This document shows positions 1 through 22,782 of a stretch of 22,782 nucleotides of DNA, in pieces; the stretch's first letter is position 1, and each line of letters opens with the position of its first letter. Source of the DNA: Chiloscyllium plagiosum (lineage: Eukaryota). The notes under the pieces were generated by a model, which saw only the letters and a list, made by a program, of their open reading frames with translations, was not told where the DNA came from and did not search any database. The DNA lies in NCBI RefSeq assembly GCF_004010195.1, contig NC_057749.1, positions 12,364,833 through 12,387,614 on the forward strand, in the 5' to 3' direction. The position numbers and the translations under genes are program-made.

Positions 1-3000
1 GAAGTTAGACTAATAGAACATGTAGCATTGCAGCTCAGTGAAGGCCCTTTGTGGATCCGCTCAGCTAATAGAGGAAGTTAGACTCAGAGAACATGGTGCA
101 AAACAGTGCAGGAGAGGCCCTTTGTGGAACTGCTCGTCTAATAAAGGAAGTTTGACTAATACAACATAGGGCATCACAACGCAATACAGGCTCTTTATGG
201 AACCGCTCGGCTAATACCGGAAATTTGACAAATACGACATAGAACATGATAGCTCTGTACAGGCGGTCGATGGAACTGGTCGTCTAATAAAGGAAGTTAG
301 ACCCATAGAACATGGGGCATCACAGCACAATACAGGCCCCTTATGGAACCGCTTAGCTAATCAAGGAAGTTTGATAAATACAACGTGGAATATTACAGCG
401 CACTACAGGCCCTTTATGCAACTGCTTGGCTAATACCGGACGTTAGATTAATACAAAATAGAACATTACAGCACAGTGCAGGACCTTTATGGAAATGCTT
501 GGTGAATAAAGGAAGTAAGACTCATGAAAAATAGCACATTACAGCGCAGACGTTTGACAAATATAAGATAGAGCATGACAGCGCTGTACAGGCCGTCAAT
601 GGAACCACTTGCCTATAAAGGATGTTCGACTCATCGAGCGTGGGGCATTAAGATGCAATATTGGCCCTTTATGTAACCGCTCAGCTAATAAAATAAGTTT
701 GACTAATACAACATGTAACATCACAGCGTAGTACAAGCCCTTTATGCAAATTCTTGGCTAAAACCAGAAGTTTGACAAATACAACATAGAACATTACAGC
801 CCTGTACAGGCTATCTATGGAACCGCTCTCCCAGTTAAGGAAGTTAGACTCATAGAACATGTGGTATTACAGCACAATACAGGCCCTTCATGGAACCACT
901 CGGCTGATAATGGACACTAGACTAATACAACATAGAACATTACAGCACAGTACAGGCCCTTTATGCAACTGCTTGGCTGTTAGAGAAAGATAGAATAATA
1001 CAAAATAGAACATTACAGCGCAGTGCAGGCCCTTTATGGAACCGCTCGGTTAATAACAAAGTTAGACTAATACAACGTAGAACATTACAGCAATGCACAG
1101 TCCGTCTATGGAACCGCTTGCCTATAAAGGAAGTTAGACTCATAAAACATGGAGCATTACAGCGCAGTACAGGCCCTTTATGGAACTGCTCGGCTGATAA
1201 TGGATGCAAGACTAATACAACATAGAACATCACAGCTCTGGACAGGCCCATTATGGAACCGCTCAGCTAATAAAGAGTGGTAGTCTCAGAAAACATAGAT
1301 CATTACAGTGTAGTACAGGCACTATATGGAACCACTCGGCTAATACAGGAAGTTAGACTCATACAACATGGAGTATTAAAGCACAGTACAGGACTTTTAT
1401 GGAAATGATTGCCTAATAAAGGAAATAAGACACATTCAATATGCAGTACAGGACCTTTATGGAAATGCTTGGCTAATACAGGAAGTTAGACTGATAGAAC
1501 ATGGAGCATTGCAGCACAGTACAGGCCCTTTATGGAACCACTTAGCTAATACCAGACATTAAACCAATACAACACAGAACATTACAGTGCAGTACAGGCC
1601 TTTTATGGAACCGTTCAGCTAATAAAGATAGTTACACACGTAGAACATGACAGCACAGTACAGGCTCTTTATGGAACTGCTTTACTTTAAAAGAAGTTAG
1701 ACTAACGCAATATAGCACATTACAGCGCAGTACAGGCCCTTTATTTAACTGCTCAGCTAATATAGGATGTTAGACTCATAGAACAAAGAATATTACAGCA
1801 CAGTACAGAGCTTTATGGAACCATTCAGCTCATGAAGAAAATCAGCCTAATACAACATATCATATTACAGAGCAGTACAGGCTCTTTATGAAAACGTTCG
1901 GCTAATAAAGAAAGTTACACACATCGAGCTTTAAGAACATGACAGCGCAGTACAGGCCCTTTATGGAATCGCTCAGCTAACACAGGAAGTTAAAATAATA
2001 GAACATAGACCATCACAGCGCAGTCCAGGCCCTTTATAGAACCGCTTGGCTAATATAGAAGTTAGATTCATAGAACATAGAATATGACAGCGCAGTCCAG
2101 GCCATTTATGGAACTGCTCAGATAATAAAGGAAGTTAGACAAATAGAACATAGCACATCACAGTACAGTACAGTCCCTTTATAGAACCGCTCGGCGAATA
2201 AAGGACCCATGGAACATAGAATATGACAGCGCAGTACAGGCCCTTTATGGAACCCCTGAGCTAATAAAAAAAGTTGCACACATAGAACATTAAGAACATG
2301 ACAGTGCAGTACAGGCCCTTTATAGAACCACTCGTCTGATAAAAGAAGTTAGACTAATACAACACAGAACATGACAGTGCAGTAGTGGAGCTTTATGTAA
2401 CTGCTCGGCGAAGAAAGTAAGTTAGACTCATCAAACATAATGCATCACAGTGCAGTGCAGGTCCTTTATAGAACCGCTTTGCAAATAAAGGAATATAGAC
2501 TCATAAAACATAGAACATGACAGCGCAATATAGGTCCATTGTGGAACCGCTCGGCTAATAAAGGAAATTAGAGTCACAGAACATACAACATTACAGCACA
2601 GTACAGGCCCTTGATGGAACCACTCGGCTAATACAGGAAGTTAGAGTCATAGAATGTACAGCATTACAGCGCAGTACACGTCCTTTATGAAACCGCTCGG
2701 TTAATACCGGACATTAGACCAATACAACATAGAACTTTACAGCACAGTACAGGCCTTTTCTGGAACAGCTCGGCTAATAAAGGAAGCTGGAGTCATAGAA
2801 CATACAGCATTACAGCGCAGTACACATCCTTCAGGGAACCACTCGGCTGATAATGGACATTAGACCAATACAACATAAAAATTTACAGCACAGTACAGGC
2901 CCTTTATGGATCAGCTCGGCTAATAAAGGAAGTTAGAGTCATAGAACATTCAGCATTACAGCGCAGTACAGGCCCTTGATGGAACCACTCGGCTCATACC

Positions 3001-6000
3001 GGATATTAGATCAATACAGCATAGAACATTACAGCGCAGTACAAGTGTTTTAGGGAACCGCTCAGCTAATAAAGGAATATAGATTCATAGAATGTAGAGA
3101 ATCACAGCACAGTACAGGCACTTTATGAAACAACTCGGCTCAAACCGGACATTAGACCAATACAACATAGAACATTACAGCACAGTACAGCCCCTTGGTG
3201 GAACCGCTCAGCTAATAGAGGAAGTTAGATTCATAAAACATACAGCATCCCAGCGCAGTACAGGCCCATTATGGAACTTCTCAGGTAATATTGGACATGA
3301 GCCCAATACAACAAAGAACATTACATCGCAGTAGAGGTCCTTTATAAAACCACTCAGCAAATAAAGATTCATAGAATGTAGAGCATTTCAGCGCAGTAAA
3401 TGTCCTTTGGGGAATCGCTCGACTACTAAAGGGAATTGGACTTATTGACCAGAGAACATTACAGAGCAACACAGACCCTTTATGGAACTGCTCAGCTCAT
3501 AAAGGATGTAAGACTAATGCAACATAGAACATTACAGCGCAGTACAGGCCCTTTATGGAACAGCCCGGCTAATAAAGGAAGTTAGACTCATAGAACATAC
3601 AGCATTACAGCGCAGTACAGGCCTTTTATGGACCTATTCGGCTACTAAAGGCAATTAGACTCATTGGACATAGAACATTACAGCGCAACAAAGACTTATG
3701 ATGGAACTGCTCAGCTAATAAAAGAAGTTAGACTAATACAATACAGAACATAACAGCACAATATAGGCCCTTTATGGAACTGCTCAGCTAATAATGCAAG
3801 TTAGACTAATACAATAGAGAAGCGCAGCACAGGCCCTTGATCGAAACGCTCAACAAATAAAGGAAGTTAGACTCATAGAACATACAGCATTACAGCGCAG
3901 TACACAACGTTTATGAAGCCGCTTGGATAATAAAGGAAGTAAGACTCATAGAACATACAGCTTTACACTGAAGTACAGGCCCTTTATAGAACCACTCGAC
4001 TACTAAGGGCGATTAGACTCATTGAACTAGAACATTACAGCGTAACAAAGGCCCATGATGGAATTGCTCAGCTAGTAAAGGAAGTTAGACAAATACAATA
4101 CAGAACATAACAGCACAGTATAGGCCCGTTATGGAACCACTCGGCAAATACCGGGCATTAGACCAATACAACGTAGAACATTACAGCGCAGTACAAGTCC
4201 TTTAGGGAACTGATAGGCTATTCGAGGAAGTAAGAGTCATAGAACATACAGCATTACAGCACAGTACAGGCTGTTTATGGAGCCGCTTGGAAAATAAAGG
4301 AAGTTAGACTCATAGACCATACAGCTTTACAGCGCAGTACAGGCCCTTTATGGAACCACTCGATCACCAAAGGCAATTAGACTCCTTGAACATAGAACAT
4401 TACAGCGCAGCAAAGGCCCATTATGGAACTGCTCAGCTAACAAAGGACATAGAACATAACAGCACAACACAGCCCCTTGGTGGAACCGCTCAGCTAATAA
4501 AGGAAGTGAAAGTCATGGAACAAACAGCATTACAGCGAAATACAGTCCCTTTATGGAACAGCTCGGCTAATAAAGGAAGTTAGAATCATAGCACATACAA
4601 CATTACAACCGCTCAGCTAATAAAGGAATATAGGTTCAAAGAACGTAAAGCATTTCAACGCATTACAGGTCCTTTGTGGAATCGCTCGACTCATTGAACA
4701 TAGAACATTACAGCGCAACAAAGGCCCATTATGGAACTGCTCAGCTAATAAAGGAAGTTCGACTAATACAACACAGAACATAACAGCTCAACACAGACCC
4801 TTGATCGAAACGCACAGCAATTAAAGGAAATTAAACTCATAGAACATACAGCATTAGAGCGCAGTACACGCCGTTTATGGAACCGCTTGGATAATAAAGG
4901 AAGTTAGTCTCATAGAACATACAGCTTTACACTGCAGTACAGGCCCTTTATGGAACCACTCGACTACTAAAGGCAATTAGACTCATTGAACATAGAACAT
5001 TACAGCGCAGCAAAGGCCCATTATGGAACTGCTCAGCTAATAAAGAAAGTTTGACGAATACAACACAGAACATAACAGCACAACGCAGGCCCTTTATGGA
5101 ACCACTCGGATAATAACGGACATTAGACCAATACAACATAGCACATTACAGTGCAATACAGATCTATTATGGAACCGCACGGCTAATAAAGGAATGTAGA
5201 TTCATAGAACATACTGCATTACAGCACACTACAGGCCGTTTATGGAGCCACATGGAAAATAAAGAAATATACATTCATAGAAAATACAGCATTACAGCAC
5301 AGTACAGGCCCTTCATGGAACCACTCGGATAATAACGGACATTAGACCAATACAACATATCACATTACAGAGCAATACAGATCCTTTATGGAATCGCACG
5401 GCTAATAAAGGAATGTAGATTCATAGAGCATGCAGCATTGAAGCACACTACAGGCCGTTTATGGAGCCGCTTGTATAATAAAGAAATATAGATTCATAGA
5501 ACATGCAGCATTGATGTACAGTACAGGCCCTTCATGGAACCACCCGGATAATAACGGACATTAGACCAATGCAACACAGCACATTACAGCGCAGTACAGA
5601 GCCTTAATGAAACCCCTCGAAAAATAAAGGAATATATATTCATCGAACATAGAGAATTACAGCACAGTACAGGCCCTTTATGGAACAGCTCGGCTAATAA
5701 AGGAAGTTAGATTGATAGAACATACAGCATTACAGCGCAATACAACATATCACATTACAGTGGCGGTGCAGGCCAATTATGGTACCATTTGGCTAATACA
5801 GGACATTAGACCAATACAAAATAGCACAATACAGCGCAGTTCAGGTACTTTATGGAACAGGTCGGCTGATAAAGGAAGTTAGACTGACAGAACATACAGC
5901 ATTACAGTGCAGTACAGGCCTGTTATGGTACTATTTGGCTTATATTGGACATTAGACCAATACAACATAGCACATTACAGCACAGAACAGGTTCTTTTTG

Positions 6001-9000
6001 GAACCACATGGCTAATAAAGGAATATAGATGCATAGAACATAGAGAATTACAGGCCTTTTATGGAACTACTCAGCAAACAACGGACATTAGACCAAGACA
6101 ACATAGCACATTACAGCGCAGTATAGGCCCTTAATGTTCCCAATCGGCTAATACCGGACATTACACCAATACAACATAGCACATTATAGTGCAATACAGA
6201 TCCTTTATGGAACTACACGGCTAATAAAGAAATGTAGATTCATAGAACATACAGCATTACAGCACACTGGAGGCCATTTATGGAGCCGCTTGTATAATAA
6301 AGAAATATAGATTCATATAACATACAGCATTACAGCCCTTTATGGAGACAATCAGCTAATAACGAATATTAGACCAATACAACATAACACATAACAGCAC
6401 AGTACAGATCCTTTATGGAACCGCTCGGCTAATAAAGGAATGTAGATTCATAGAACGTACAACATTACAATGCAGTACTTGTCCTTTATGGTACCCATTT
6501 GGTTAATACCGGACATTAGACCAATACAACAAAGCACATTACAGTGTAGTACAAGGTCCTTTATGGAACAGCTTGGCTAATAAAGCAAGTCCGACTGATA
6601 AAACGTACAGCATTACAGAAAAGTACCGGCCCTTTATGGTACCATTCAGTTTATATCGAACATTAGTCGAAAACAACATAGCAAATTACAGCGCAGTACA
6701 GGTCCTTTATGGAACAGCTCGGCTATTAAAGGAAGTTAGTCTGATAGAACATACAGCATTACAACGCAGTACAGACCCTTTATGGTACCATTCAGTTTAT
6801 ACCGGACATTAGTCGAATACAACATAGCACATTACAGCGTAGTACTGGTCCTTTATGGAATAGCTCGGCTACTAAAGGAAGTTAGACTGATAGAACACAC
6901 AGCATTACAGCGCAGTACAGGTCCATCATGGTACCATTTGGTTTATAGTGGACAGATGACCAATACAACATAGCACATTACAGCGCAGTACAGGTCCTTT
7001 ATGGAACCGCATGGCTAATAAAGGAATATAGATTCATAGATCGTCGAGAATTACAGCACAGTACATGTCCTTTATGGAACGGCTCGGCTAATATAGGAAG
7101 TGAGATTCATAGAACATACAGCATTACAGCACAGTACAGGCCCTTTATTGTACTATTTGGCTAATACCGGACATTAGACCTTTGCAACATAGCACGTTAT
7201 AGCGCAGTACTGGTCCTTTATGGAACCGCTCGGCTAATAAAGCAAGTTAGACTGATAGAACATAAGCATTTCAGCGCAGTACTGGTCCTTTATGGAACCG
7301 CATGGCTAATAAAGGAATATAGATTCATAGAACGTAGAGAATTACAGCACAGTACAGGACAATTATGGAACAGCTCAGCTAATATAGGAAGTGAGATTCA
7401 TATAATATACAGCATTACAGCGCAGTACAGGGCCTTTATGAAACTGCTCGTCTAATAAAGGAATATAGATTCATAGAACGTAGAGAATTACAGCACAGTA
7501 CAGGCCGTTTATGGAGCCGCTTGGATAATAAGGAAATATAGATTCATAGAACATACAGCGTTACAGTGCAGTACAGGCCCTTTATGGAACCACTCGGATA
7601 ATAACGGACATTAGACCAATACAACATAGCACATTACAGCAAAGTACAGGGCCTTTATGGAACCGCATGGCTAATAAAGGAATATAGATTCATAGAATGT
7701 TGAAATTACAGCACAGTACAGGACCTTTAAGGAACCATTTGGCTAATACCAGACATTAGACCTTTTCAACATAGCACATTACAGCGCAGTACTGGGCCTA
7801 TATGGAACTGCACGGCTAATAAAGGAATGTGATTTATAGAACATACAGCATTGCAGCACAGTATAGGCCTTTTATGAAGCGGCTTGGATAAGAAAGAAAC
7901 TCGGATGCACAAAACATACAGCATCACAGCACAGTACAGGCTGTGTATGGAACCACTCGGCAAATAACGGACATTAGACCAATACAACATACCACATTAC
8001 AGCGCAGTACAGGTCCTTTATGGAACCGCACGGCTAATAAAGGAATGTGGATTCATAAAGCATGCAGCATTACAGCACAGTACAGGCCCTTCATGGAACC
8101 ACTCGGATAATAACAGACATTAGACCAATACAACATATCACATTACAGCGCAATACAGATCCTTTATGGAAACGCACGGCTAATAAAGGAATGTAGATTC
8201 ATAGAACATACAGCATTGAAGCACACTACAGGCCGTTTATGGAGCTGCTTGTATAATAAAGAAATATAGATTCATAGAACATACAGCATTGATGTACAGT
8301 ACAGGCCCTTCATGGAACCACCCGGATAATAACGGACATTAGACCAATACAACACAGCACATTACAGCGCAGTACAGGGCCTTAATAGAACCCCTCGGAA
8401 AATAAAGGAATATATATTCATTGAACATAGAGAATTACAGCACAGTACAGGCCCTTTATGGAACAGCTTGGCTAATAAAGGAAGTTAGACTGATAGAACA
8501 TACAGCGTTACAGCGCAATACAACATATCACATTACAGTGGCAGTGCAGGCCAATTATGGTACCATTTGGCTAATACAGGACATTAGACCAATACAAAAT
8601 AGCACAATACAGCGCAGTTCAGGTACTTTATGGAACAGGTCGGCTGATAAAGGAAGTTAGACTGACAGAACATACAGCATTACAGTGCAGTACAGGCCTG
8701 TTATGGTACTATTTGGCTTATATTGGACATTAGACCAATACAACATAGCACATTACAGCACAGAACAGGTCCTTTTTGGAACCGCATGGCTAATAAAGGA
8801 ATATAGATTCATAGAACATAGAGAATTACAGGCCTTTTATGGAACTACTCAGCAAACAATGGACATTAGACCAAGACAACATAGCACATTACAGCGCAGT
8901 ATAGGCCCTTAATGTTCCCAATCGGCTAATACCGGACATTACACCAATACAACATAGCACATTATAGCGCAATACAGATCCTTTATGGAACTACACGGCT

Positions 9001-11504
9001 AATAAAGAAATGTAGATTCATAGAACATACAGCATTACAGCACACTGGAGGCCATTTATGGAGCCGCTTGTATAATAAAGAAATATAGATTCATAGAACA
9101 TACAGCATTGATGCCAGTACAGGACCTTTATGGGACCACCTGGATAATAACAGACATTAGACCAATACAACATAGCACATTACAGCGCAGTACAGGGACC
9201 TTATGGAACCCCTTGGAAAATAAAGGAGTGTAGATTCATAGAGCGTAAAGAATTACAGCACACTACAGGACCTTTATGGAACAGCTCGGCTAATATAGGA
9301 AGTGAGATTCATAGAACATACAGCATTACAATGCAGTACTTGCCCTTTATGGTACCATTTGGTTAATACCGGACATTAGACCAATACAACAAAGCACATT
9401 ACAGTGTGGTACAAGGTCCTTTATGGAACAGCTCGGCTAATAAAGCAAGTTCGACTGATAAAACGTACAGCATTACAGAAAAGTACCGGCCCTTTATGGT
9501 ACCATTCAGTTTATATCGAACATTAGTCGAATACAACATAGCAAATTACAGCACAGTATAGGTCCTTTATGGAACAGCTCGGCTATTAAAGGAAGTTAGT
9601 CTGATAGAACATACAGCATTACAACGCAGTACAGACCCTTTATGGTACCATTCGGTTTATACCGGACATTAGTCGAATACAACATAGCACATTACAGCGT
9701 AGTACTGGTCCTTTATGGAATAGCTCGGCTACTAAAGGAAGTTAGACTGGTAGAACACACAGCATAACAGCGCAGTACAGGCCCTTCATGGTACCATTTG
9801 GTTTATAGTGGACAGACGACCAATACAACATAGCACATTACAGTGCAGTACAGGTCCTTTATGGAACCGCATGGCTAATAAAGGAATATAGATTCATAGA
9901 ACGTCGAGAATTACAGCACAGTACAGGTCCTTTATGGAACGGCTCGGCTAATATAGGAAGTGAGATTCATAGAACATACAGCATTACAGCACAGTACAGG
10001 CCCTTTATTGTACCATTTGGCTAATACCGGACATTAGACCTTTGCAACATAGCACGTTATAGCGCAGTACTGGTCCTTTATGGAACCGCTCGGCTAATAA
10101 AGCAAGTTAGACTGATAGAACATACAGCATTACAGCGCAGTATCGGTCCTTTATGGAACCGCATGGCTAATAAAGGAATATAGATTCATAGAACGTAGAG
10201 AATTACAGCACAGTACAGGACAATTATGGAACAGCTCAGCTAATATAGGAAGTGAGATTCATATAATATACAGCATTACAGCGCAGGACAGGGCCTTTAT
10301 GAAACTGCTCGTCTAATAAAAGAATATAGATTCATAGAACGTAGAGAATTACAGCACACTACAGGCCGTTTATGGAGCCGCTTGGATAATAAAGAAATAT
10401 AGATTCATAGAACATACAGCGTTACAGCGCAGTACAGGCCCTTTATGGAACCACTCAGATAATAACGGACATTAGACCAATACAACATAGAACATTACAG
10501 TGCAGTACAGGACTTTATGGAACCGCTTGGCAAATAACGGAATGTAGATTCATAGAACATACCGCATTACAGCACACTACAGACCATTTATGGAGCCACT
10601 TGGATAATAAAAAAATATAGATTCATAGAACATACAGCATTACAGCACAATACAGGCCATTCATGGAACCACTCGGATAATAACGGACATTAGACCAATA
10701 CAACATAGCACATTACAGCAAAGTACAGGGCCTTAATGGAACTGCACGGCTAATAAAGGAATATCGATTCATCGAACGTAGAGAATTACAGCACAGTACA
10801 GGACCTTTATGGAGCCGCTTGGAAAATAAAGAAATATAGATTCATAGAACATACAGCGTTACAACGCAGTAAAGGCCTTTATGGAACCACCCGGATAATA
10901 ACGGACATCAGACCAATACAACACAGCACATTACAGCGCAGTACAGGACTTTATGGATCAGCTTGGCAAATAACAGAATATAGATTCATCGAACGTAGAG
11001 AATTACAGCACAGTACAGGCCCCTTATGGGACAGCTTGGTTAATAAAGGAAGTTAGACTGATCAAACATACAGCATTACAGAGCAGTACAGGCCCTTTAT
11101 GGTACCATTTGGCTCATACCGGACATTAGACCAATACAACCTAGCACATTACAGCGCAGTACAGGGCCTTTATGAAACTGCTCGTCTAATAAAGGAATAT
11201 AGGTTCATAGAGCATAGAGAATTACAGCACAGTACAGGCCCTTTATGGAACAGCTTGGCTAATAAATGAAGTTAGACTGATCGAACATACAGCATTACAG
11301 TGGAGTACAGGCCCTTTATGGCACCATTCGGCCAATACCGGACATTAGACCAATACAATATAGCACATTACAGCGCAGTACAGATCCTTTATGGAACAGG
11401 TCGGCTAATAAAGGAAGTAAGAGTGATTGAACATACAGCATTACAGCGCAGTACAGGCCCGTTATGGTACCATTCAGCTAATACCGGATATTAGACCAAT
11501 ACAA
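1..11504. repeat. 73-bp tandem satellite array (~155-160 diverged monomers), truncated by window start
   Basis: Approximate consensus AAGGAAGTTAGACTCATAGAACATACAGCATTACAGCGCAGTACAGGCCCTTTATGGAACCGCTCGGCTAATA. GTAC recurs at 2893, 2966 and 3039 (73-bp period). A second monomer type replaces the first part with ACCGGACATTAGACCAATACAACATAGCAC. Confidence 0.97.
5291..10500. repeat. Higher-order ~2.8-kb direct duplication inside the satellite (about 5291-7640 and 8069-10500)
   Basis: Shared private variants at offset 2778 (TACAACATATCACATTACAGTGGC at 5741 and 8519; near-identical ORFs at 5907 and 8685). Offset becomes 2860-2861 further on (GGTTAATACCGGACATTAGACCAATACAACAAAGC at 6501 and 9361). 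Confidence 0.9.
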
Positions 11505-12586
11505 TGTTAACAGTGAGGTTACCTCATGACCTTTTCCACATAGTTTAGACTGGTCTCTTGTTATGATGTACTGTTAAAAGGGAACTTACCTAGCTAAGGC
11601 ATTTTGGCCTGGTTTGATCATGGTTTCCCACTTTCATGTGCATGTAGCTTAATTAGTCAAGTGTACTCAGACCTGTCAAGTAGTTTCTCTTCCTCTACAA
11701 ACTTTTGCCATTTTTTTGCTGCTTATCTGATTAAGGATATGTGGTGTTTTTTGTAATCTCAGTACCAATTTCTGTATAAGGACAGCTTGTTTGCAGCAGT
11801 AAGGGGAGTAGCCTGAAAGAGCTGTTCGTGCTAAGAGCTGGCGCTCCTACTCTGCTAATGGTTTTAAAACCTTGGCTCAAGCCTGGCTTGTGGGTATCTG
11901 TTATATTGTAACATTGATGCCATTGGTAAATAGAGGTAATAATTTAAACTAAACTGTCTGCAAAACTTTTATATTCCACACTACCACAGAGTACAATCTC
12001 TGTGACGAACCAAGAGAGACTTAGAGGTCTGGTCCATTAGGGATTCCCTGAGCCATCTCGAATAGGTACTTTAACATTGTGTGTGAATTTTAAAAGGTCA
12101 AGTTACATAAAAATCCTGTTCTTTTACAATTCTTGTTAAAGTCAGGAGTTTTGTAAGTAGGTTTTTTATTATGGTGGGCAGACTGATGTGGTTCACTTTT
12201 GTCCCAGGTAGCAGTGCTCAGAAGCAAATCTGAATTTGTGGTTGTGTGATTTAAATCTTCACATTTGTCATGACTCTGGGAATAATGGGTTTTGATTTCC
12301 AGTCCACTACCCCTGTGGGTTGGAACAGTTGCCTCATTGAGGTATTTACCTGGTGAGCTGGCTGCTAACCTATTTGCAGCCCATTTGGACCAACACGTGC
12401 AAAGCCTGATTCTGTTGTAAAGTTTGCAGCTTTTCAGTATCACAACTTGTTTCTTTGTCTACTAAATTAGGAGTGATACTTCATTAGTGTTGCAGTATTG
12501 TTTCTTGCCCTTCATGAGGCTACACTAGCTATGCAGCTGGAAGTTTATGGATTCTGTATGTAGAATATCAGAGGAGATAGATTACA

Positions 12587-12617
12587 GTCATTGAGATGTA
12601 CAGCAAGGAAACATACC
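12587..12617 (-). mobile_element. Very short CR1/HER1-type 3' tail remnant
   Basis: GTCATTGAGATGTACAGCAAGGAAACATACC resembles the CR1 end at 18270 (CATAGAGATGTACAGCACAGAAACAGACC). Confidence 0.45.
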
Positions 12618-12861
12618 TAAGGGTGCGAGAACAGAGCTGTGGGGTGGCAAGTAAGAATTCTTTGGGGGCACCATCCTCATTTTAAACATGCTGTGCAGCA
12701 GGGTGAGCCAAGAGTTGAGAACGGGCTTGCCATCTTCCTCTATGCTTTTTGACACCGTTTCTCTGTCACAGTTAGCCCCCTAATACAAAGAGCCATTCTC
12801 TCTTTGGGGCTACGATTATTGTGCCTCATAGCTGGTTCGTTGTTCTTCGTAAGGTATCCTT

Positions 12862-13003
12862 TTAAGATGTTTAATAAATGAATAGGAAAGGTTTGGAGGG
12901 ATATGGGCCAGGTTCAGGCAGTTGGGATTAGTTTATTTTGGGATTATGTTCGGCATGGACTGGTTGGACCGAAGGGTCTGTTTCTGTGCTGCATGACTCT
13001 ATA
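12862..13003 (+). mobile_element. CR1/HER1-type LINE 3' end fragment
   Basis: GAATAGGAAAGGTTTGGAGGGATATGGGCCA...CGGCATGGACTGGTTGGACCGAAGGGTCTGTTTCTGTGCTGCATGACTCTAT. It has the terminal stem-loop GGACC-GAAG-GGTCT and a tail repeat, and is homologous to the reverse complement of 18270-18350. Confidence 0.85.
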
Positions 13004-13011
13004 AATCAAAA

Positions 13012-13980
13012 AACAATATAGCATATTACATCACAGTACAGGCCTTTTATGGAATAGCTCGGCTAATAAAGCAAGTTAGACTGATAGAACGTACAGCATT
13101 ACAGCGCAGTACCGGCCCTTTATGGTACCATTCGGCTCACACCAGACTTTAGACCAATACAACATAGCACATTACAGCACAGTACAGGCCCTTGATGTAA
13201 CTGCTCGGCTAATAAAGGAAGTTAGAGTCATAGAACATGGAGCATTACAGCACAGTACAGGCTCTTTATGCAACCACTTGGCTAATACCGGAAGTTTGAC
13301 AAATAGAATATAGAACATTACTGCGCAGTACAGGCCCTTTATGCAACCGCTCGGCTGATAATTGACAGGAGACTAATACAACATAGAACATCACAGCTCC
13401 GAACAGGACCATTATGGAACTGCTCGGCTGTTAAAGGAAGTTAGACGAATTCAAAATAGAATATCACAATGCAGTAGAGGCCCTTTATGGAAACACTCGG
13501 CTCAAAGGAAGTTCGCCTCAGAGAACACAGAACATTACAGAGCTATACAGGCCATTTATGGAACTGATTGGTTATTAATGGACATTAGACTAATATGACA
13601 TCGAACATTGCAGCGCAGTATAGGCCATTTATAGAACCGCTTGCTTGATAATGGAAGTAGGACTCATAGAATGTGGAGCATTACAGTGCAGTACAGGCTC
13701 TTTTGTGGAACTGCTTGGCTAATGAATGAACTCAGGCTAATACAACATAGGACATCACAACGCAGTACAGGCTTTTTCTGGAAAAGCTTGGCCAATAATG
13801 GAAGTAAGACTCATAGAACATAGAACATTACAGCACAATACAGATCCTTTATGAGACCACTCGGCTGATAATGCACACTAGACTAATACAACTTAGTACA
13901 TTACAGAGCAGGACAGGCCCTTTATGCAACTGCTTGGCTGTTAAAGGAAGGTAGAATGATACAAAATGGAACATTACAGC
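13012..13980. repeat. 73-bp satellite array, second segment (~13 monomers)
   Basis: Same monomer and orientation as 1-11504. Confidence 0.96.
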
Positions 13981-15579
13981 AACCTCCCCACGCACTAACA
14001 ATGCCAACTCCCTGAACACCAACTTCCCCAATTACAAACAATGCTCACTCCTAGTACACCATCCTCCCCAACCACTAACAATGCCAACTCCCTTTACACC
14101 AGCGCCCACAGTCATGAACCATGCTAACTCCCTGTACACCATCCTCCCCAATCACTGACAATGCTAACCCGCTGTACACTAACCTCCCCAGTTACTAACA
14201 ATGCCAACTACTTGTACACAAGCCTCCCCAATCAATAACAATGCTAACTCCCTGTACACAAGCCTCCTCAATCAATAACAATGCTAACTCTTTGTACAAC
14301 AGCCTCCCCAATCACTAACAATGCTAACTCCCAGTACACCATCCTCCCCAATCAATAACAATGCTAACTCCCTGTACACAAGCCTCCTCAATCAATAACA
14401 ATGCTAACTCTTTGTACACCAGCCTCTCCAATCACTAACAATGCTAACTCCCAGTACACCATCCTCCCCAATCAATAACAATGCTAACTCCCTGTACACC
14501 AGCCTCCCCAATCACTAACAATGCGAACTGCCTGTACACCTGCGTCCACGGTCACTAACCAAGCTAACCCACTGTACACCAGCCTCCCCAATCACGAACA
14601 ATGATAACTCCTTGTCCACCAGCCTCCCCAATCACTAACAATGCCAACTCCCTGTACACCAGCCTCCCCAATCACTAAGAATGCTAACTCACTGTACGCC
14701 AGCCTTCTCATTCAAATAGATTGCTAACTCCCTGTACGCCAGTCTCACTAATCACTAACAATGCCAATTCCCTGTACACCAGCCTCCACGATCAGGAACA
14801 ATGCGAACTCCCTGTACACCATCCTCTCCAATCACGAACATTGCTAACTCCCTGTCAAACAGCCTCCCCAATCACGAACAATGCTAACTCCCTGTACACC
14901 ACCCCTCCCAATCACTGACAATTCGTTCTCTCTGCACACCATCCTCCGCAATCACTAACAATGCTAACCCCCTGTACACCATTCTCCACAGTCACTAACA
15001 ATGCTAACTCCCGGTACACCAGCCTCCTCAATCAATAACGATGCTAACACCCTGTACACCTGCCTCCCCAATCAATAATAATGCTAACTCTCTGTTCAAC
15101 AGCGTCCCCAATCACTAACAATGCTAACTCGCTGTACACCACCCTTCCCAATCACTAACAATTCGAACTCTCTGTACACCACACTCCCCACTCACTAACA
15201 ATGCTAACTCCCTGTACACCAGCGTCCACGGTCACTAACCAAGCTAACCCACTGTACACCATCCTCCCCAATCACTAACAATGCTAACCCCCTGTACACG
15301 AGCCTCCCCAATCACTAACAATGCTAACTCCTTGTACACCACCCTCCCAAATCACTAACAATTCGAACTCTATGTACACCACACTCCCCACTCACTAAAA
15401 ATGCTAACTCCTTGTACACCAGCTTCCACGGTCACTAACCAAGCTAACCCACTCTACACCATCCTCCCCAATCACTAACAATTCTAACTCCCTGCACACC
15501 AGCCTCCCCAATCACTAACAATGCTAGCTCCATATACACCAGCCTCCCCAATCACTAACAATGCCAGCTCCCTGTACAC
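13981..15579. repeat. 40-bp C/A-rich tandem satellite (~40 copies), truncated by gap
   Basis: Unit AGCCTCCCCAATCACTAACAATGCTAACTCCCTGTACACC stays in register from 13981 to 15541 (39 x 40 bp). Confidence 0.97.
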
Positions 15580-17364: not shown

Positions 17365-17565
17365 AACTTTATTTTTATTTCAAAAATATACTTTATTAGT
17401 AAAACGTCTCTTTGTGTATGTACATTGATACAAAAACAGTACAGTTCTGTACAGCTGCATATCAAATAAACAAAACGTTGAACTTTGACTCTCTCTCTTA
17501 CACATTAATATTTACATATATTTGAGGCAGTAGGAGGATTCGATAACTGAATGGACCCCCATTTA
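17365..17565 (-). mobile_element. Tx1/L1-like LINE 3' UTR with polyA signal and A-rich tail
   Basis: Minus strand reads GGGGGTCCATTCAG...TGCCTCAAATATATG...AATAAAGTATATTTTTGAAATAAAAATAAA, resembling the start of the 3' UTR at 21363-21415 (GGGGGCCC...CGCCTCAGCTAAATATATAG). Confidence 0.6.
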
Positions 17566-18097
17566 CAAATTCTGAACAAACATCTAGACATAACCTGGCT
17601 GATGGTGAGAAACAATCCCTGCATCAGCCTGTGCATAGACCCGTGGTACACAAAAACCAAATGTCACTATGTACTGAGGTTCTACCTGTCCATGGTGTTG
17701 TAAAGGATAGGTCTGGCCTTGTTGTTGCGAAATGCACTGAGTAGTTGGACCGTTCCGTATCACCTGTCCTTCGTGCAAAAATTAGATAACATATACCTTT
17801 GCCCACAAGTCCATCAGGACGTGGTCAGCACTTAGTGTCCTCAAAATCCTGCAAGAAACAGAGAGGTTGGATCTTGTTGAGTTGTTCCCTGAGCAGACTG
17901 TTAAAGTAATTTGGCAGAATGCCTCATCGCTAGAAGTTTCAAGACATTGCTTGGCTGGTGGTGAGAAAGGCAATATCTCTTCACATATGCCTCGACTCTT
18001 TGCGTCACTGCATGCTGCTTTCGAAGCAGCTGTAGGTGGCTAGAGACTGTCACACATCTCCCTATGGAACATGCCATTGCAAAGGAAGTCTGGGCAT

Positions 18098-18252: not shown

Positions 18253-18269
18253 CAAAGGAAGTCTAGAGG

Positions 18270-18658
18270 CATAGAGATGTACAGCACAGAAACAGACCCT
18301 TTGGTCCAATTCAATGCCGACCAGATATCTTAATCTAATTTAGTCCCATTTGCCAACGCTTGCCTTTGGTTGGTCATTCCATACACACATCACCCTCTGC
18401 GTGAAAACGTTGCCCCTTTGGTCCGTTTTAAATTTTTCCCCCTCTCATCTTAAACCTATGCCTTCTAGTTCTAGACTCCCCCACCCCAGGGAAAAGATCT
18501 TGTCTACGTACCCTATTCATACTCTTCATAATTTTTTAAACCTCTATAAGGTGACTCCGATGCTCCAGGGAAAACAGCCTCAGCCTATTCAGTTTCTCCC
18601 TATAGCTTAAATCCTCCAACCCTGGCAATATCCTTGTAAGTCTTTTCTGAACCCTTTT
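18270..18658 (-). mobile_element. CR1/HER1-type LINE 3' fragment (ORF2 C-terminus plus 3' UTR, internally deleted)
   Basis: Minus-strand translation from 18658 gives KRVQKRLTRILPGLEDLSYREKLNRLRLFSLEHR, a typical CR1 ORF2 C-terminal motif. It ends in GGACCAAAGGGTCTGTTTCTGTGCTGTACATCTCTATG. Confidence 0.9.
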
Positions 18659-19224
18659 GAAAGATGCAGTTGTTTTTGTTAAGGTTTGCCCCGATCAGCT
18701 CCATGACAAAGGACTCTATGGGTTTAACCCGAGGAGGCACACCAAGGCAGTGTGTCTGGAGGATCATCAACTCAGTGAAAGACCCTTTTTGGTCTGCCTG
18801 AAACTTATTGGTCTTCCAGAGCAAGGAGTTGACCTCAACCAAGTGTTCCATTCCCATCAATGTTGAGTTCACTGATGAAGTAACATCACAAACCCACGTA
18901 AACCAGATGCTTTCACAATAACCTTATAGTCAGCATCATTCCTGATTTGTCAGCTTTAGCATTTAGTAGTAACCCGGCAAGAGTCAGCTGTTTCAGAGGA
19001 ACAAAAGAGAAAATTATTTGAAACATGGACGTAGAAACCAGTTTGAAAGGAAAATGCTGGAACTCAAGGGAAGCTGCTGAACGTTTTGATTAGATGGGTT
19101 TTGTTTCAATATCCTTTTGTGATTTTTGTTGTTCCTGTCCTGTTAGAGCCAGCAATGGATGGTGTTGAATCATTCAGTTAAAAATCACACAACACCAGTT
19201 TATAGTCCAACAGGTTTATTTGGA

Positions 19225-19592: not shown

Positions 19593-21339
19593 CTGGGGAC
19601 GGTGATTTACCCTGATCAAACTTGTGCTATACCGGGCAGAAAGATCGCTGAGAGTCTCGCACTCCTCAGGGATATGATGGCCTACGTGCAGGACAGAGGG
19701 TTAGACACCTGCCTCATCAGCCTGGACCAGGAGAAAGCCTTTGACAGGACATCACACAGATATATGAGATGTTCTCTCTAAAATGGGCTTTGGGGAGGGA
19801 ATCTGCAATTGGAACAGACTGCTCTACACCAACATTGTCAGTGCAGTCTCAATCAATGGGTGGGAATCAGATAGCTTCCCAGTCAGATCTGGAGTCAGGC
19901 AGGGTTGCCCTCTCTCTCCTGTCTTGTTTGTGTGCTGCAAGTCCATCATGAAGGATGCGAGCCTGAGAGGGGTGACTATTCTTGGCAGTGGAGGCCTGCA
20001 GGTTAAGGTCTCCCTGTACATGGATGACGTCGCCGTTTTCTGCTCGGACCCGCTGTCCGTGCACAGATTCACGTGATCATATGTGACCAGTTCGAACGGG
20101 CCTCAGGGGCCAAGGTAAACTGAGGCAAGATCGAGGCCATGCTCTTCGGGAACTGGGCCGACCAATCCTCGATCCCCTTCACCGTCAGGACCGACCACCT
20201 GAAGGTGCTGGGTATTTGGTTTGGGGGGGCTGGGCGTGCACAGTCTTGGGAGGAGTGTATCAGCAAAGTGAGGCAGAAACTGGGCAGATGGAAGCTACAG
20301 TCGCTCTCCATCGTGGGAAAAAACCTGGTCATCAGGTGTGAGGCACTGTCGTTGCTGTTATCCGTGGCACAGGTCTGGCCTATTCCCAGAACCTGTGCCG
20401 CTGCAGTTACCCGGGCCATCTTCCAATTTATATGGAGGTCAAAGATGGACCGGGTCCGAAGGGACTCGCTGTACAAAGATCTGGGCAACGGGGGAAAATA
20501 TACACCCAATGCCAGCCTCACCCTGATGGCCACCTTTGTGTGTGGCTGCATCAAGCTGTGCGTGGATCCCCGGTACGCAAACACCAAGTGTCACTACGTA
20601 CTGAGGTTCTACCTGTCCCCGGTGTTGCAAAGGATGGGCCTGGCCTCGCTGCTGCGGAACGCTCCGAGTAGTTGTGCTGTTACGTATCACCTGTCCTTCG
20701 TGGAGAAGTTTATGAAGAAAAACATTTTTGACCACAAGTCCGTCAGGAAGTGGTCAGCATGTAGTGTTCTTGAGACCTTTCGGGAAAAGGAGAGGGCGGA
20801 TCCTATCGAGAGGTGCCCTGAGCAGACTGTCAAAGCCATTTGGCAAAATGCCTCATCGCCAGAACATTCCAACAAGCACCAAGACATGGCTTGGCTGGTG
20901 GTGAGAAGGGCTCTGCCTGTGAGATTCTTTATGCACACCTGGACTCTCAGCCGCTCTGCATGCTGCCCTTGAAGCGGCTGCGGGGGGGAGCGAGACTGTC
21001 ACAACCTTCTTCTGGAATGTGCCTATGCAGAAGAAGTCTGGAGAGGAATGCAGTGGTGTTTGTCGAGGTTAGTCCCGGGCAGCCCCGTGACGCGGGACTC
21101 GGTGCTTTACGGTCTATTCTCTGGTACGTACACAGAGATGAACATCAACTGTGCCTGGAGGATCATCAACTTGGTGAAGGACGCTCTCTGGGCGGTCTGA
21201 AACCTGTTGATTTTCCAGCTGAAGGAGTTGACCCCGACTGAGTGTTGTAGACTGGCACATTCCAAGGTCCAGGACTACGTGTTGAGGGACGCGCTGAAAC
21301 TTAGGGCAACTGCCGCGGTGGGGAAAGACCACTGTGTAA
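19593..21339 (+). pseudogene. Disrupted ORF2 reverse transcriptase plus C-terminal Cys-rich region of Tx1-like LINE
   Basis: IYPDQTCAIPGRKI, LISLDQEKAFDR, GVRQGCPLSPVLF, YMDD, LKVLGIWFG, and a degenerate zinc knuckle at ~20965-21020. Frameshift near 19780, TGA stops at 20074, 20121 and 20970. Probable natural stop TAA at 21337-21339. Confidence 0.92.
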
Positions 21340-21499
21340 CATCTGCCTGTCTGAGAAGAACAGGGGGCCCCTCGCAGTCTTTTGGGCTTTGCTGACGCCT
21401 CAGCTAAATATATAGACTTATGACTGATAAACGTACAAACCTGTATATACAAATGATAAATTCTGATCTCTGTATGCAAAGAAATTGAATAAAAAAAAA
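19593..21499 (+). mobile_element. 5'-truncated Tx1-like (L1 superfamily) non-LTR retrotransposon with polyA tail and TSD
   Basis: RT motifs are present (see nested pseudogene). AATAAA at 21488 and A-run at 21491-21499. Direct repeat TTTGCAGATACATTCTGTT (19574-19592) / TTTGCAGCTACATTCTATT (21501-21519). Confidence 0.93.
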
Positions 21500-21676: not shown

Positions 21677-22059
21677 ATAGAATCGTAGAATCCCGACAAT
21701 GTGGAAACTGCCCCTTTGGCCCAACAAGTCCACATCAACCCTCCAAAGAGCAACCCATCCAGACCCATTCCTCTACCTTATTACTCTATATTTACCCCTG
21801 ATGAATGCACCTAACCTACACATGCCTGAACGCTAAGGGCAGTTTAGCAAGTCTAATTCACGACACCTGTACATCTTTGGATCGGGGGAGGAAACCGGAG
21901 AACCTGTAGAAAACCCCCACAGACGTGGGGAGAATGTGCAGATGTTACACAGTGGTCTTTCCCCACCGCGCCTTGACGGCAGCTGCCCCAGGGACGGCAG
22001 CTCGTCCCTCAGTTGCCCGAAGCTGGAATCGAACCCAGTGCTAACTACGGAGACTCCAT
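21677..22059 (-). mobile_element. HE1-type tRNA-derived V-SINE, with deletion in the tRNA head and a foreign insertion
   Basis: Minus strand has B-box GGGTTCGATTCC (22025-22036), the V-domain-like core CTCCGGTTTCCTCCCCCGATCCAAAGATGTACAGG, and a CR1-like tail GGGCCAAAGGGGCAGTTTCCACATTGTCGGGATTCTACGATTCTAT. Confidence 0.88.
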
Positions 22060-22537: not shown

Positions 22538-22752
22538 ATGTGGAGAACCGCCGCGGTGGCGGCACTGCTGGCCATCACTCTCCACCTGCTCATCTCCTAT
22601 TACCCGATGGATACTCCTGTGGAGGCCGTGCGAATCCTGTCCGATTACCTGTTCGGCCAGAGGGTGGTGCGGGAGCCCGAGGAGCTGGTGGCTGAGGCCT
22701 GGGACTCGCTCATCAGAGCACCGAGCAATGGCTGGAGCAGAGTGGCTGTAGG
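22538..22752 (+). CDS. ADPGK: ADP-dependent glucokinase family, first coding exon (continues beyond window)
   Basis: GCCATG Kozak start. Hydrophobic N-terminus MWRTAAVAALLAITLHLLISYY. AEAWDSLIRAPSNGWSRVAVG matches the recalled human ADPGK segment AAAWDALIVRPVRRWRRVAVG. Splice donor GG|GTGAGG at 22752/22753 (phase 2), so the TGA at 22754 is intronic. Could be the adpgk2 paralogue. Confidence 0.87.
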
Positions 22753-22782
22753 GTGAGGGGAGGAGCGACGGAGAGAGGGGGG

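What the first reader, a model, noticed from the sequence alone, without database searches (positions are those of the whole stretch)
1..13980. The 73-bp satellite appears to be built from a CR1 LINE 3' tail
Seen: about half of each monomer (e.g. 3521-3553 AACATAGAACATTACAGCGCAGTACAGGCCCTT; 13812 CATAGAACATAGAACATTACAGCAC) resembles the CR1 ends in this window (18270 CATAGAGATGTACAGCACAGAAACAGACCCTT, and the reverse complement of 12972-13003). On the minus strand it reads AAGGGCCTGTACTGCGCTGTAATGTTCTATGTTCTATG, with a TTCTATG tail repeat. A possible stem GGUUC-CAUAAA-GGGCC lies where CR1 has GGACC-GAAG-GGTCT. Known: CR1-clade RTs recognise a 3' stem-loop plus terminal repeat, and HE1 SINEs borrow the HER1 tail. 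Inference: a LINE recognition tail was amplified into a satellite. Minus-strand transcripts might be retroposable or act as RT decoys, and plus-strand transcripts would be antisense to CR1 and HE1 RNA ends.
Basis: partly seen in the sequence, partly recalled or inferred. Interest (0 to 1): 0.7.

Follow-up and report, generated by a model that had tools for sequence, protein, structure and literature searches.

The report
Shark satellite from broken LINE tail
Half of each 73-base unit of this satellite DNA is identical to the very end of an abundant scattered repeat, likely a CR1 jumping gene of a shark, but it is cut in the middle of the hairpin that such genes need for copying, so it is likely an ordinary transposon-derived satellite and not a working decoy.

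Summary
The origin holds; the proposed function does not. The 73-bp array is real but split by a 1.5-kb insert (11505-13002). Laying one monomer on DNA contigs of three organism labels shows that 3521-3553 is the terminus of an abundant dispersed element: summed depth is 26-151 times that of the other half, one side has unrelated flanks (778-890 contigs), the other one shared continuation. The match stops inside the hairpin loop, so the monomer keeps only the 3' strands of the donor's stems. The substitute stem is weak (pair probability median 0.005, no covariation); monomers fold like shuffles (mean z 0.1). One single-cell RNA run gave no satellite-spanning read, a weak test (about 2 expected). 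Donor as LINE rather than SINE is inferred from tail homology. It is a new member of a known kind (chicken CR1 HinfI repeat, cetacean L1 satellite, reptile SINE satellites). The scan noted the same satellite earlier on another piece of this genome (e1-9388643), with the same reading.

The parts
1..11504 (.). 73-bp satellite, left block (runs off the window start); monomer variants mixed, with weak dimer periodicity
   Evidence: neighbour identity 0.71 at lag 1, 0.76 at lag 2
13013..13980 (.). 73-bp satellite, right block, in phase with the left block across the insert
3521..3553 (-). Donor-derived half of one monomer: last three loop bases, 3' arm of the hairpin, 3' strand of the lower stem and the 7-nt terminal repeat of a dispersed CR1-type element (33 nt here, 37-38 nt where two repeat units survive)
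   Evidence: depth and loose ends; one search reads over 13084-13120; regional consensus
3554..3588 (.). 35-nt half of the monomer of unknown origin, likely old flanking DNA
   Evidence: depth 26-151 times lower than the tail half; loose ends behind 3561 continue as satellite
5287..7629 (+). First copy of a recent internal duplication of about 38-39 monomers (second copy about 8065-10490), 98% identical in three blocks
   Evidence: offsets 2778, 2860, 2861
11505..13002 (+). Non-satellite insert inside one monomer, ending in a CR1-type 3' terminus
12878..13002 (+). 3' end of a CR1-type LINE of another subfamily (end of ORF2, intact GAAG-loop hairpin, terminal repeat); comparator, not the donor
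18270..18694 (-). 3' fragment of a CR1-type LINE (ORF2 C-terminal remnant plus tail); comparator, not the donor
21680..22050 (-). tRNA-headed SINE with exact B box at 22025-22035 and a third tail type; the name HE1 is recalled, not tested against a library
13981..15579 (.). Unrelated 40-bp C-rich satellite that abuts the array, followed by an assembly gap

Best explanation
This is a 73-bp satellite whose unit joins the last 33-38 bases of an abundant dispersed element, likely a CR1 LINE, cut inside its hairpin loop, to 35 bases of other DNA; it likely arose when one extremely truncated insertion and its flank were duplicated and then amplified as DNA, and it is likely inert with respect to the LINE's reverse transcriptase. 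Shown: the tandem array; identity of half the unit with the donor terminus; the break in the loop; loss of the fold; decay at CpG; a recent 2.8-kb block duplication; presence under three organism labels. Inferred: that the donor is an autonomous CR1 LINE and not a SINE carrying its tail; that the 35-nt half is target-site flank; that unequal crossing-over or slippage drove amplification; that the array is neutral heterochromatic DNA.
For:: summed contig depth at 3538-3540 against 3568-3570 is 26x, 114x and 151x in X1, X9, X17 (ratios). Loose ends before 3521 are unrelated (778, 890, 884 contigs; agreement 0.41-0.42); loose ends behind 3553/3554 share one continuation (352+227, 407+294, 375+283 contigs; agreement 0.72-0.74) that supplies the missing 5' hairpin arm. 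The donor tail has the same layout as the in-window CR1-type tails (and read side by side), and protein P0003 carries an ORF2 C-terminal stretch directly followed by that in-window tail type. Minus-strand MFE z mean 0.10, 5 of 124 below -2, empty alifold consensus. Tail half not significantly better conserved than the rest (0.84 vs 0.81, p=0.15). CpG columns diverge 33% vs 16%. No B box in the array. In zebrafish L2-clade LINEs an intact stem and the cognate loop are both required (PMC4176376, passages).
Against: The donor was seen for only 31 bases beyond the monomer, so its ORF2 was never observed; it could be a SINE. The satellite persists under three organism labels, with one 80-nt stretch identical in organism C, which could reflect constraint, slow evolution or close kinship. 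The loop requirement comes from L2-clade elements, not shark CR1. Summed contig depth is not a copy number. Only the 124 exact-length monomers were folded.
Confidence: 0.76

Rival explanations
1. The array is a source of small RNAs or antisense transcripts that target the 3' end of the donor family in the germ line. This needs only sequence identity, not the hairpin.
For: Plus-strand transcripts would be complementary to 33-38 nt of the donor end, about a piRNA length. The satellite is shared by three organism labels.
Against: Monomers average 83% identity to the donor 33-mer and only 2 of 162 are within one mismatch. The tail half is not significantly more conserved than the rest (p=0.15). 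No read over the satellite-only parts among 1112 laid in X19 (weak: about 2.4 expected at the DNA ratio, P(0)=0.09); depth ratio 29-fold under DNA in X21, whose RNA status is a guess.
Confidence: 0.1
2. Minus-strand transcripts keep a substitute stem-loop, bind CR1 reverse transcriptase and are retroposed or act as decoys.
For: The consensus can form five pairs (-3.4 kcal/mol isolated); one column varies from a G-U to an A-U pair in 31 of 124 monomers; the terminal repeat lies at the right distance.
Against: Loop is 6 nt, not the donor's GAAG; 102 of 124 monomers lack the first loop base. The 5' strands of both stems are missing. No covariation and median pair probability 0.005, 0.001 in three-monomer context. 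Both terminal repeat units exact in 1 of 124. No Pol III B box.
Confidence: 0.04
3. The whole monomer comes from the donor: the 35-nt half is a diverged piece of the 3' region brought next to the tail by an internal deletion, or the donor is a SINE.
For: The last 8 letters of the donor continuation match the first 8 of the non-tail half at 6 positions, both differences being transitions (read by eye). SINEs with LINE tails are common in sharks (HE1/HER1 in the table of PMC3747384).
Against: A 6-of-8 match somewhere in 24 offsets has chance about 0.10. No high-copy depth over the non-tail half at 88% or 82% likeness. Local alignments to in-window tails stop at the loop.
Confidence: 0.08
4. The resemblance is chance, or the LINE took its tail from the satellite.
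For: Within the window alone the signal is modest (1 of 300 shuffles for one tail, none for the other).
Against: 33 of 33 identity at the exact terminus of a high-copy element. The donor's tail continues into a complete hairpin and upstream box shared with other CR1-type subfamilies, while the satellite breaks mid-loop.
Confidence: 0.02

Closest known systems
Chicken HinfI (SCR1) tandem repeat, Li and Leung 2006, known here only through the review PMC9659126 (passages and Table 1)
   Same: A tandem repeat whose unit contains the 3' UTR region of a CR1 LINE.
   Different: The chicken unit includes part of ORF2; here only the last 33-38 nt are kept, cut within the hairpin loop, in a 73-bp unit.
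Common cetacean satellite from the 3' part of L1, Kapitonov et al. 1998, via PMC9659126 (passages)
   Same: Satellite monomer similar to the 3'-terminal part of a LINE.
   Different: L1 is a poly(A)-type LINE without a hairpin-plus-repeat tail; different clade and host.
SINE-derived satellites (sSat1-3) of squamates, Vassetzky et al. 2023, PMC10702118 (part 1 of 5 and passages read)
   Same: Units of about 70-290 nt from part of a retroposon, some with 30-44 extra nt of unknown origin; repeated independent origins; modest copy number.
   Different: Those derive from tRNA-SINE head, body or LINE-derived region; here no SINE head or body is present, and subtelomeric position is untested.
CR1 3' hairpin plus microsatellite (PMC8665684, passages) and ZfL2-1/ZfL2-2 stem-loop recognition (PMC4176376, passages)
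   Same: The donor has a hairpin followed by a short terminal repeat; the satellite keeps the repeat and the 3' arm.
   Different: The satellite lacks the 5' arms and cognate loop, which the L2 assays found essential; for CR1 the hairpin's role is described as hypothesised.

Membership tests
Transposon-derived satellite DNA | Long head-to-tail array of a fixed unit | tested here: met
   about 170 units, 124 of 161 intervals exactly 73 bp
Transposon-derived satellite DNA | Unit contains a segment of a dispersed mobile element | tested here: met
   terminus of a high-copy element with unrelated flanks on one side and a shared body on the other
Transposon-derived satellite DNA | Heterochromatic, centromeric or subtelomeric location | not testable with these tools
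   no genome held; neighbouring second satellite and gap are only suggestive
CR1 LINE (the donor) | 3' hairpin followed by a short terminal repeat | tested here: met
   continuation completes a GGCC-GAAG-GGCC hairpin (read by eye, not folded by a tool); 7-nt repeat
CR1 LINE (the donor) | Tail follows an ORF2 with endonuclease and RT | tested here: inconclusive
   Not seen for the donor (searches gave nothing usable). Seen for the homologous in-window tail type: P0003; 2 of 16 scanned hits carry RVT_1
HE1 SINE / cited in-window CR1 ends as donor | Near-identity of the monomer half to that tail | tested here: not met
   22/36, 24/35 and 26/35 against 33/33 for the dispersed donor
Substrate or decoy of a stringent-type LINE RT | Intact stem with the cognate loop | tested here: not met
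Substrate or decoy of a stringent-type LINE RT | Internal Pol III promoter (B box; motif recalled) | tested here: not met
   0 of 4 window matches lie in the array; Rfam 0 matches
Substrate or decoy of a stringent-type LINE RT | Transcripts covering the monomer | tested here: inconclusive
   none in X19 (about 2.4 expected), trace in X21, X20 no test
Substrate or decoy of a stringent-type LINE RT | Dispersed single monomers ending at the terminal repeat | not testable with these tools
   no genome held; the loose-end table cannot separate them from donor copies

The most novel reading that the evidence does not exclude
A satellite built from the extreme 3' end of a major CR1-type family serves as a germ-line small-RNA source aimed at the one segment that every copy of that family, however truncated, must carry; hairpin-truncated CR1 ends would be a recurring seed for such arrays in sharks.
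Probability: 0.08. Interest if true: 0.65.

Novelty: new member of a known kind. Interest (0 to 1): 0.25.

Why it matters
It is a clean, base-resolved example of a satellite seeded by a LINE end, in a lineage whose satellites I found little described, and the break at the hairpin loop hints at how such seeds form. It also warns that short probes or k-mers from this satellite will mostly report the dispersed family. It does not show a new mechanism. It would matter more if gonadal small RNAs came from the array, since that would be host defence aimed at the part of a LINE that all copies share.

Tried and rejected
No whole genome was held, so genome-wide searches for dispersed monomers and a full donor were impossible. 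Pattern scans for the tail in metagenome, viral and prokaryote collections gave 0, 0 and 0 and then 2 matches whose flanks do not continue as the element; plasmids no match. The run search listed no RNA holder; this is not evidence. X20 laid no reads on either stretch, control included: no test. Word-index protein searches with a satellite peptide and with the ORF2 remnant found nothing (weak); the Atlas gave unnamed clusters only; Pfam has no model for the ORF2 remnant. BLAST self-comparisons printed no rows; the duplication came from the k-mer spectrum. Clustering monomers gave weak groups (silhouette at most 0.15), so no strict higher-order repeat is claimed. Motif searches in papers and in supplements of PMC11406177 (2 files) and PMC13343379 (1 file) found no relevant sequence. 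The sequence look-up in earlier findings returned nothing. Rejected: HE1 or the cited in-window ends as donor; the substitute stem as a conserved structure; chance.

Full report
Observation. TRF reports a 73-bp period over 1-11471 and 13013-13980 and a separate 40-bp satellite at 13975-15579. An anchor motif gave 162 sites; 124 of the 161 intervals are exactly 73 bp, and these 124 monomers average 82% identity to their consensus. All column and folding statistics below use these 124; monomers with indels were left out. The array is split by non-satellite DNA at 11505-13002 and resumes in phase. Neighbours are 71% alike and second neighbours 76%; three blocks between 5287 and 7629 recur 2778-2861 bases later at 98%. 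So the unit is old and the array still grows by DNA-level block duplication.

Test inside the window. Against the non-satellite DNA the best local hit of the circular consensus is the tail at 18254-18302 (score 33). One of 300 dinucleotide shuffles reached 33 (null mean 22). The 12972-13000 hit scored 19 and is not significant alone. Global identities of 3521-3553 are 26/35 to the 18270 tail, 24/35 to the 12972 tail and 22/36 to the tail of the SINE at 21680. The in-window ends are therefore relatives at best.

The real donor. No genome is held. The run search listed 24 runs, 18 holding part of the array in 8 studies and three organism labels. I laid one near-consensus monomer (3511-3592) on three DNA contig sets and one RNA run. 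Summed depth over the tail half is 26, 114 and 151 times that over the other half in X1, X9 and X17 (ratios; the tool warns this is no copy number). It rises at about 3521 and falls at about 3553. Before 3521, 778, 890 and 884 contigs run on into long unrelated A+T-rich sequence (agreement 0.41-0.42), with a further repeat unit next to the junction. Behind 3553/3554, 579, 701 and 658 contigs run on into one shared sequence beginning CGGCCCTC (agreement 0.72-0.74). No alternative letter was listed within 3521-3553 at the 3% threshold. This is the signature of the 3' terminus of a dispersed retroposon read on the minus strand, and the monomer half matches it at 33 of 33. extends the match to 37-38 nt (13084-13120). 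The continuation is absent from the window. The satellite itself is in all three organisms: whole-monomer contigs and joints going back about 73 bases; one contig of organism C matches 80 nt with no difference.

What the donor is. Read with the window, the continuation completes a GGCC-GAAG-GGCC hairpin and an upstream GCCGAC box whose complement can pair with 3534-3540 as a lower stem (by eye). The in-window tails have the same layout, with an A-U pair where the donor has G-C, and fold with z -2.95 and -2.21. Those in-window tails are LINE ends: the 18539-18694 remnant finds 101 proteins, 2 of the 16 I scanned carry RVT_1, and P0003 has that ORF2 stretch directly followed by a match to 12888-13016. 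A hairpin plus short terminal repeat is the described CR1 3' structure (PMC8665684, passages), and galeomorph sharks are reported to lack L2 while CR1-group elements make up 22-34% of elasmobranch genomes (PMC13343379, abstract and passages). That the host is a shark, and that the SINE at 21680-22050 is HE1, rests on recall, the HE1/HER1 entry in PMC3747384 (passages) and earlier scan notes. The donor's own ORF2 was not seen; attempts to fetch it failed. CR1 LINE is thus likely, a SINE with that tail not excluded.

Structure. The monomer stops matching inside the loop: it keeps the last three loop bases and only the 3' strands of both stems; 102 of 124 monomers have a different first loop base. 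In three-monomer context the median is 0.001 (7 of 123 above 0.5). Minus-strand monomers fold like their shuffles (mean z 0.10; 5 of 124 below -2) and alifold gives no consensus pairs. Against this, one of three monomers folded individually (13812-13884) reaches z -2.1 with such a hairpin. The tail half is not significantly more conserved than the other half (0.84 vs 0.81, p=0.15); CpG columns diverge twice as fast as others (33% vs 16%), and both terminal repeat units are exact in 1 of 124. No B box lies in the array and Rfam finds nothing. In zebrafish ZfL2 LINEs, deleting the stem-loop, disrupting the stem or changing the loop abolished retrotransposition (PMC4176376, passages); by analogy the monomer would not be recognised.

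RNA. On 12860-13150 run X19 (single-cell poly(A), about 2% read) laid 1112 reads. Depth reached about 700 on the CR1-type end, a positive control. Thirty-eight reads covered the tail half of the monomer and stopped near its edge, as donor reads would; none covered 13020-13079 or 13130-13150. At the DNA ratio only about 2.4 were expected (P(0)=0.09), so this excludes only abundant poly(A) transcripts of monomers at least 82% like these, in one sample. X21 (RNA status guessed) showed the satellite-only part 29-fold under the DNA ratio. X20 gave no test. Small RNAs and gonads were not sampled as far as the records show.

Mechanism. Most likely a donor copy was inserted after reverse transcription of only about 38 nt, ending in the hairpin loop; this and 35 nt of flank were duplicated, then amplified by unequal exchange, before the three organisms split. 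The truncation, flank capture and amplification route are inferred. An internal-deletion origin for the 35 nt rests on a 6-of-8 match with chance about 0.10 and is kept as a minor rival.

Comparison and novelty. Satellites from LINE 3' regions are known: chicken HinfI from CR1 and the cetacean satellite from L1 (review PMC9659126, passages and Table 1; primary papers not seen), and squamate SINE-derived satellites with units of 70-290 nt, some with extra DNA of unknown origin (PMC10702118, part 1 of 5 and passages). I found no description of this shark satellite in searches of the open library, in passages of PMC11406177 and PMC10620051, or in the supplements searched. Subscription journals, bioRxiv supplements and repeat libraries were out of reach and may hold it. 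Earlier scan notes, read after I had stated my reading, report the same 73-base satellite on another piece of this genome with the same verdict and a separate 76-bp array from a CR1/HE1 tail; they are unchecked leads, not independent support.

Verdict. Real feature, correct origin in outline, different donor subfamily, recognition structure lost. New member of a known kind; interest 0.25.

Noticed in passing
window 11505-13016: A 1.5-kb insert sits in phase inside one monomer, ends in a CR1-type 3' terminus and is followed by about 14 nt resembling the left flank (possible decayed target-site duplication). Its upstream part is low-copy in X1 (depth 62 against millions). It may be one LINE-driven insertion of a chimeric transcript.
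   Followed up: partly
window 5287-7629 and 8065-10490: Recent internal duplication of about 38-39 monomers at 98% identity.
   Followed up: partly
window 13970-14000: The 73-bp array passes directly into the 40-bp C-rich satellite at a point where the two units share a few similar letters, as a recombination junction might.
   Followed up: no
window 12586-12620: A further, more decayed CR1-type tail fragment on the minus strand inside the insert.
   Followed up: partly
window 19600-21340 and 17550-18000: Two fragments of another LINE family (RVT_1 at E 9e-10, weak zf-RVT), L1/Tx1-like by recall, the longer one inserted in a different repeat.
   Followed up: partly
window 21680-22050: tRNA-headed SINE on the minus strand with an exact B box and a third type of hairpin tail.
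   Followed up: partly
window 22538-22756: G+C-rich region with an ATG-started frame and hydrophobic N-terminus, probably the first exon of a host gene only about 7 kb from the satellites and gap; no Pfam match.
   Followed up: no
continuation vs window 3554-3561: Six of eight letters match between the end of the donor continuation and the start of the non-tail half; chance about 0.10.
   Followed up: partly
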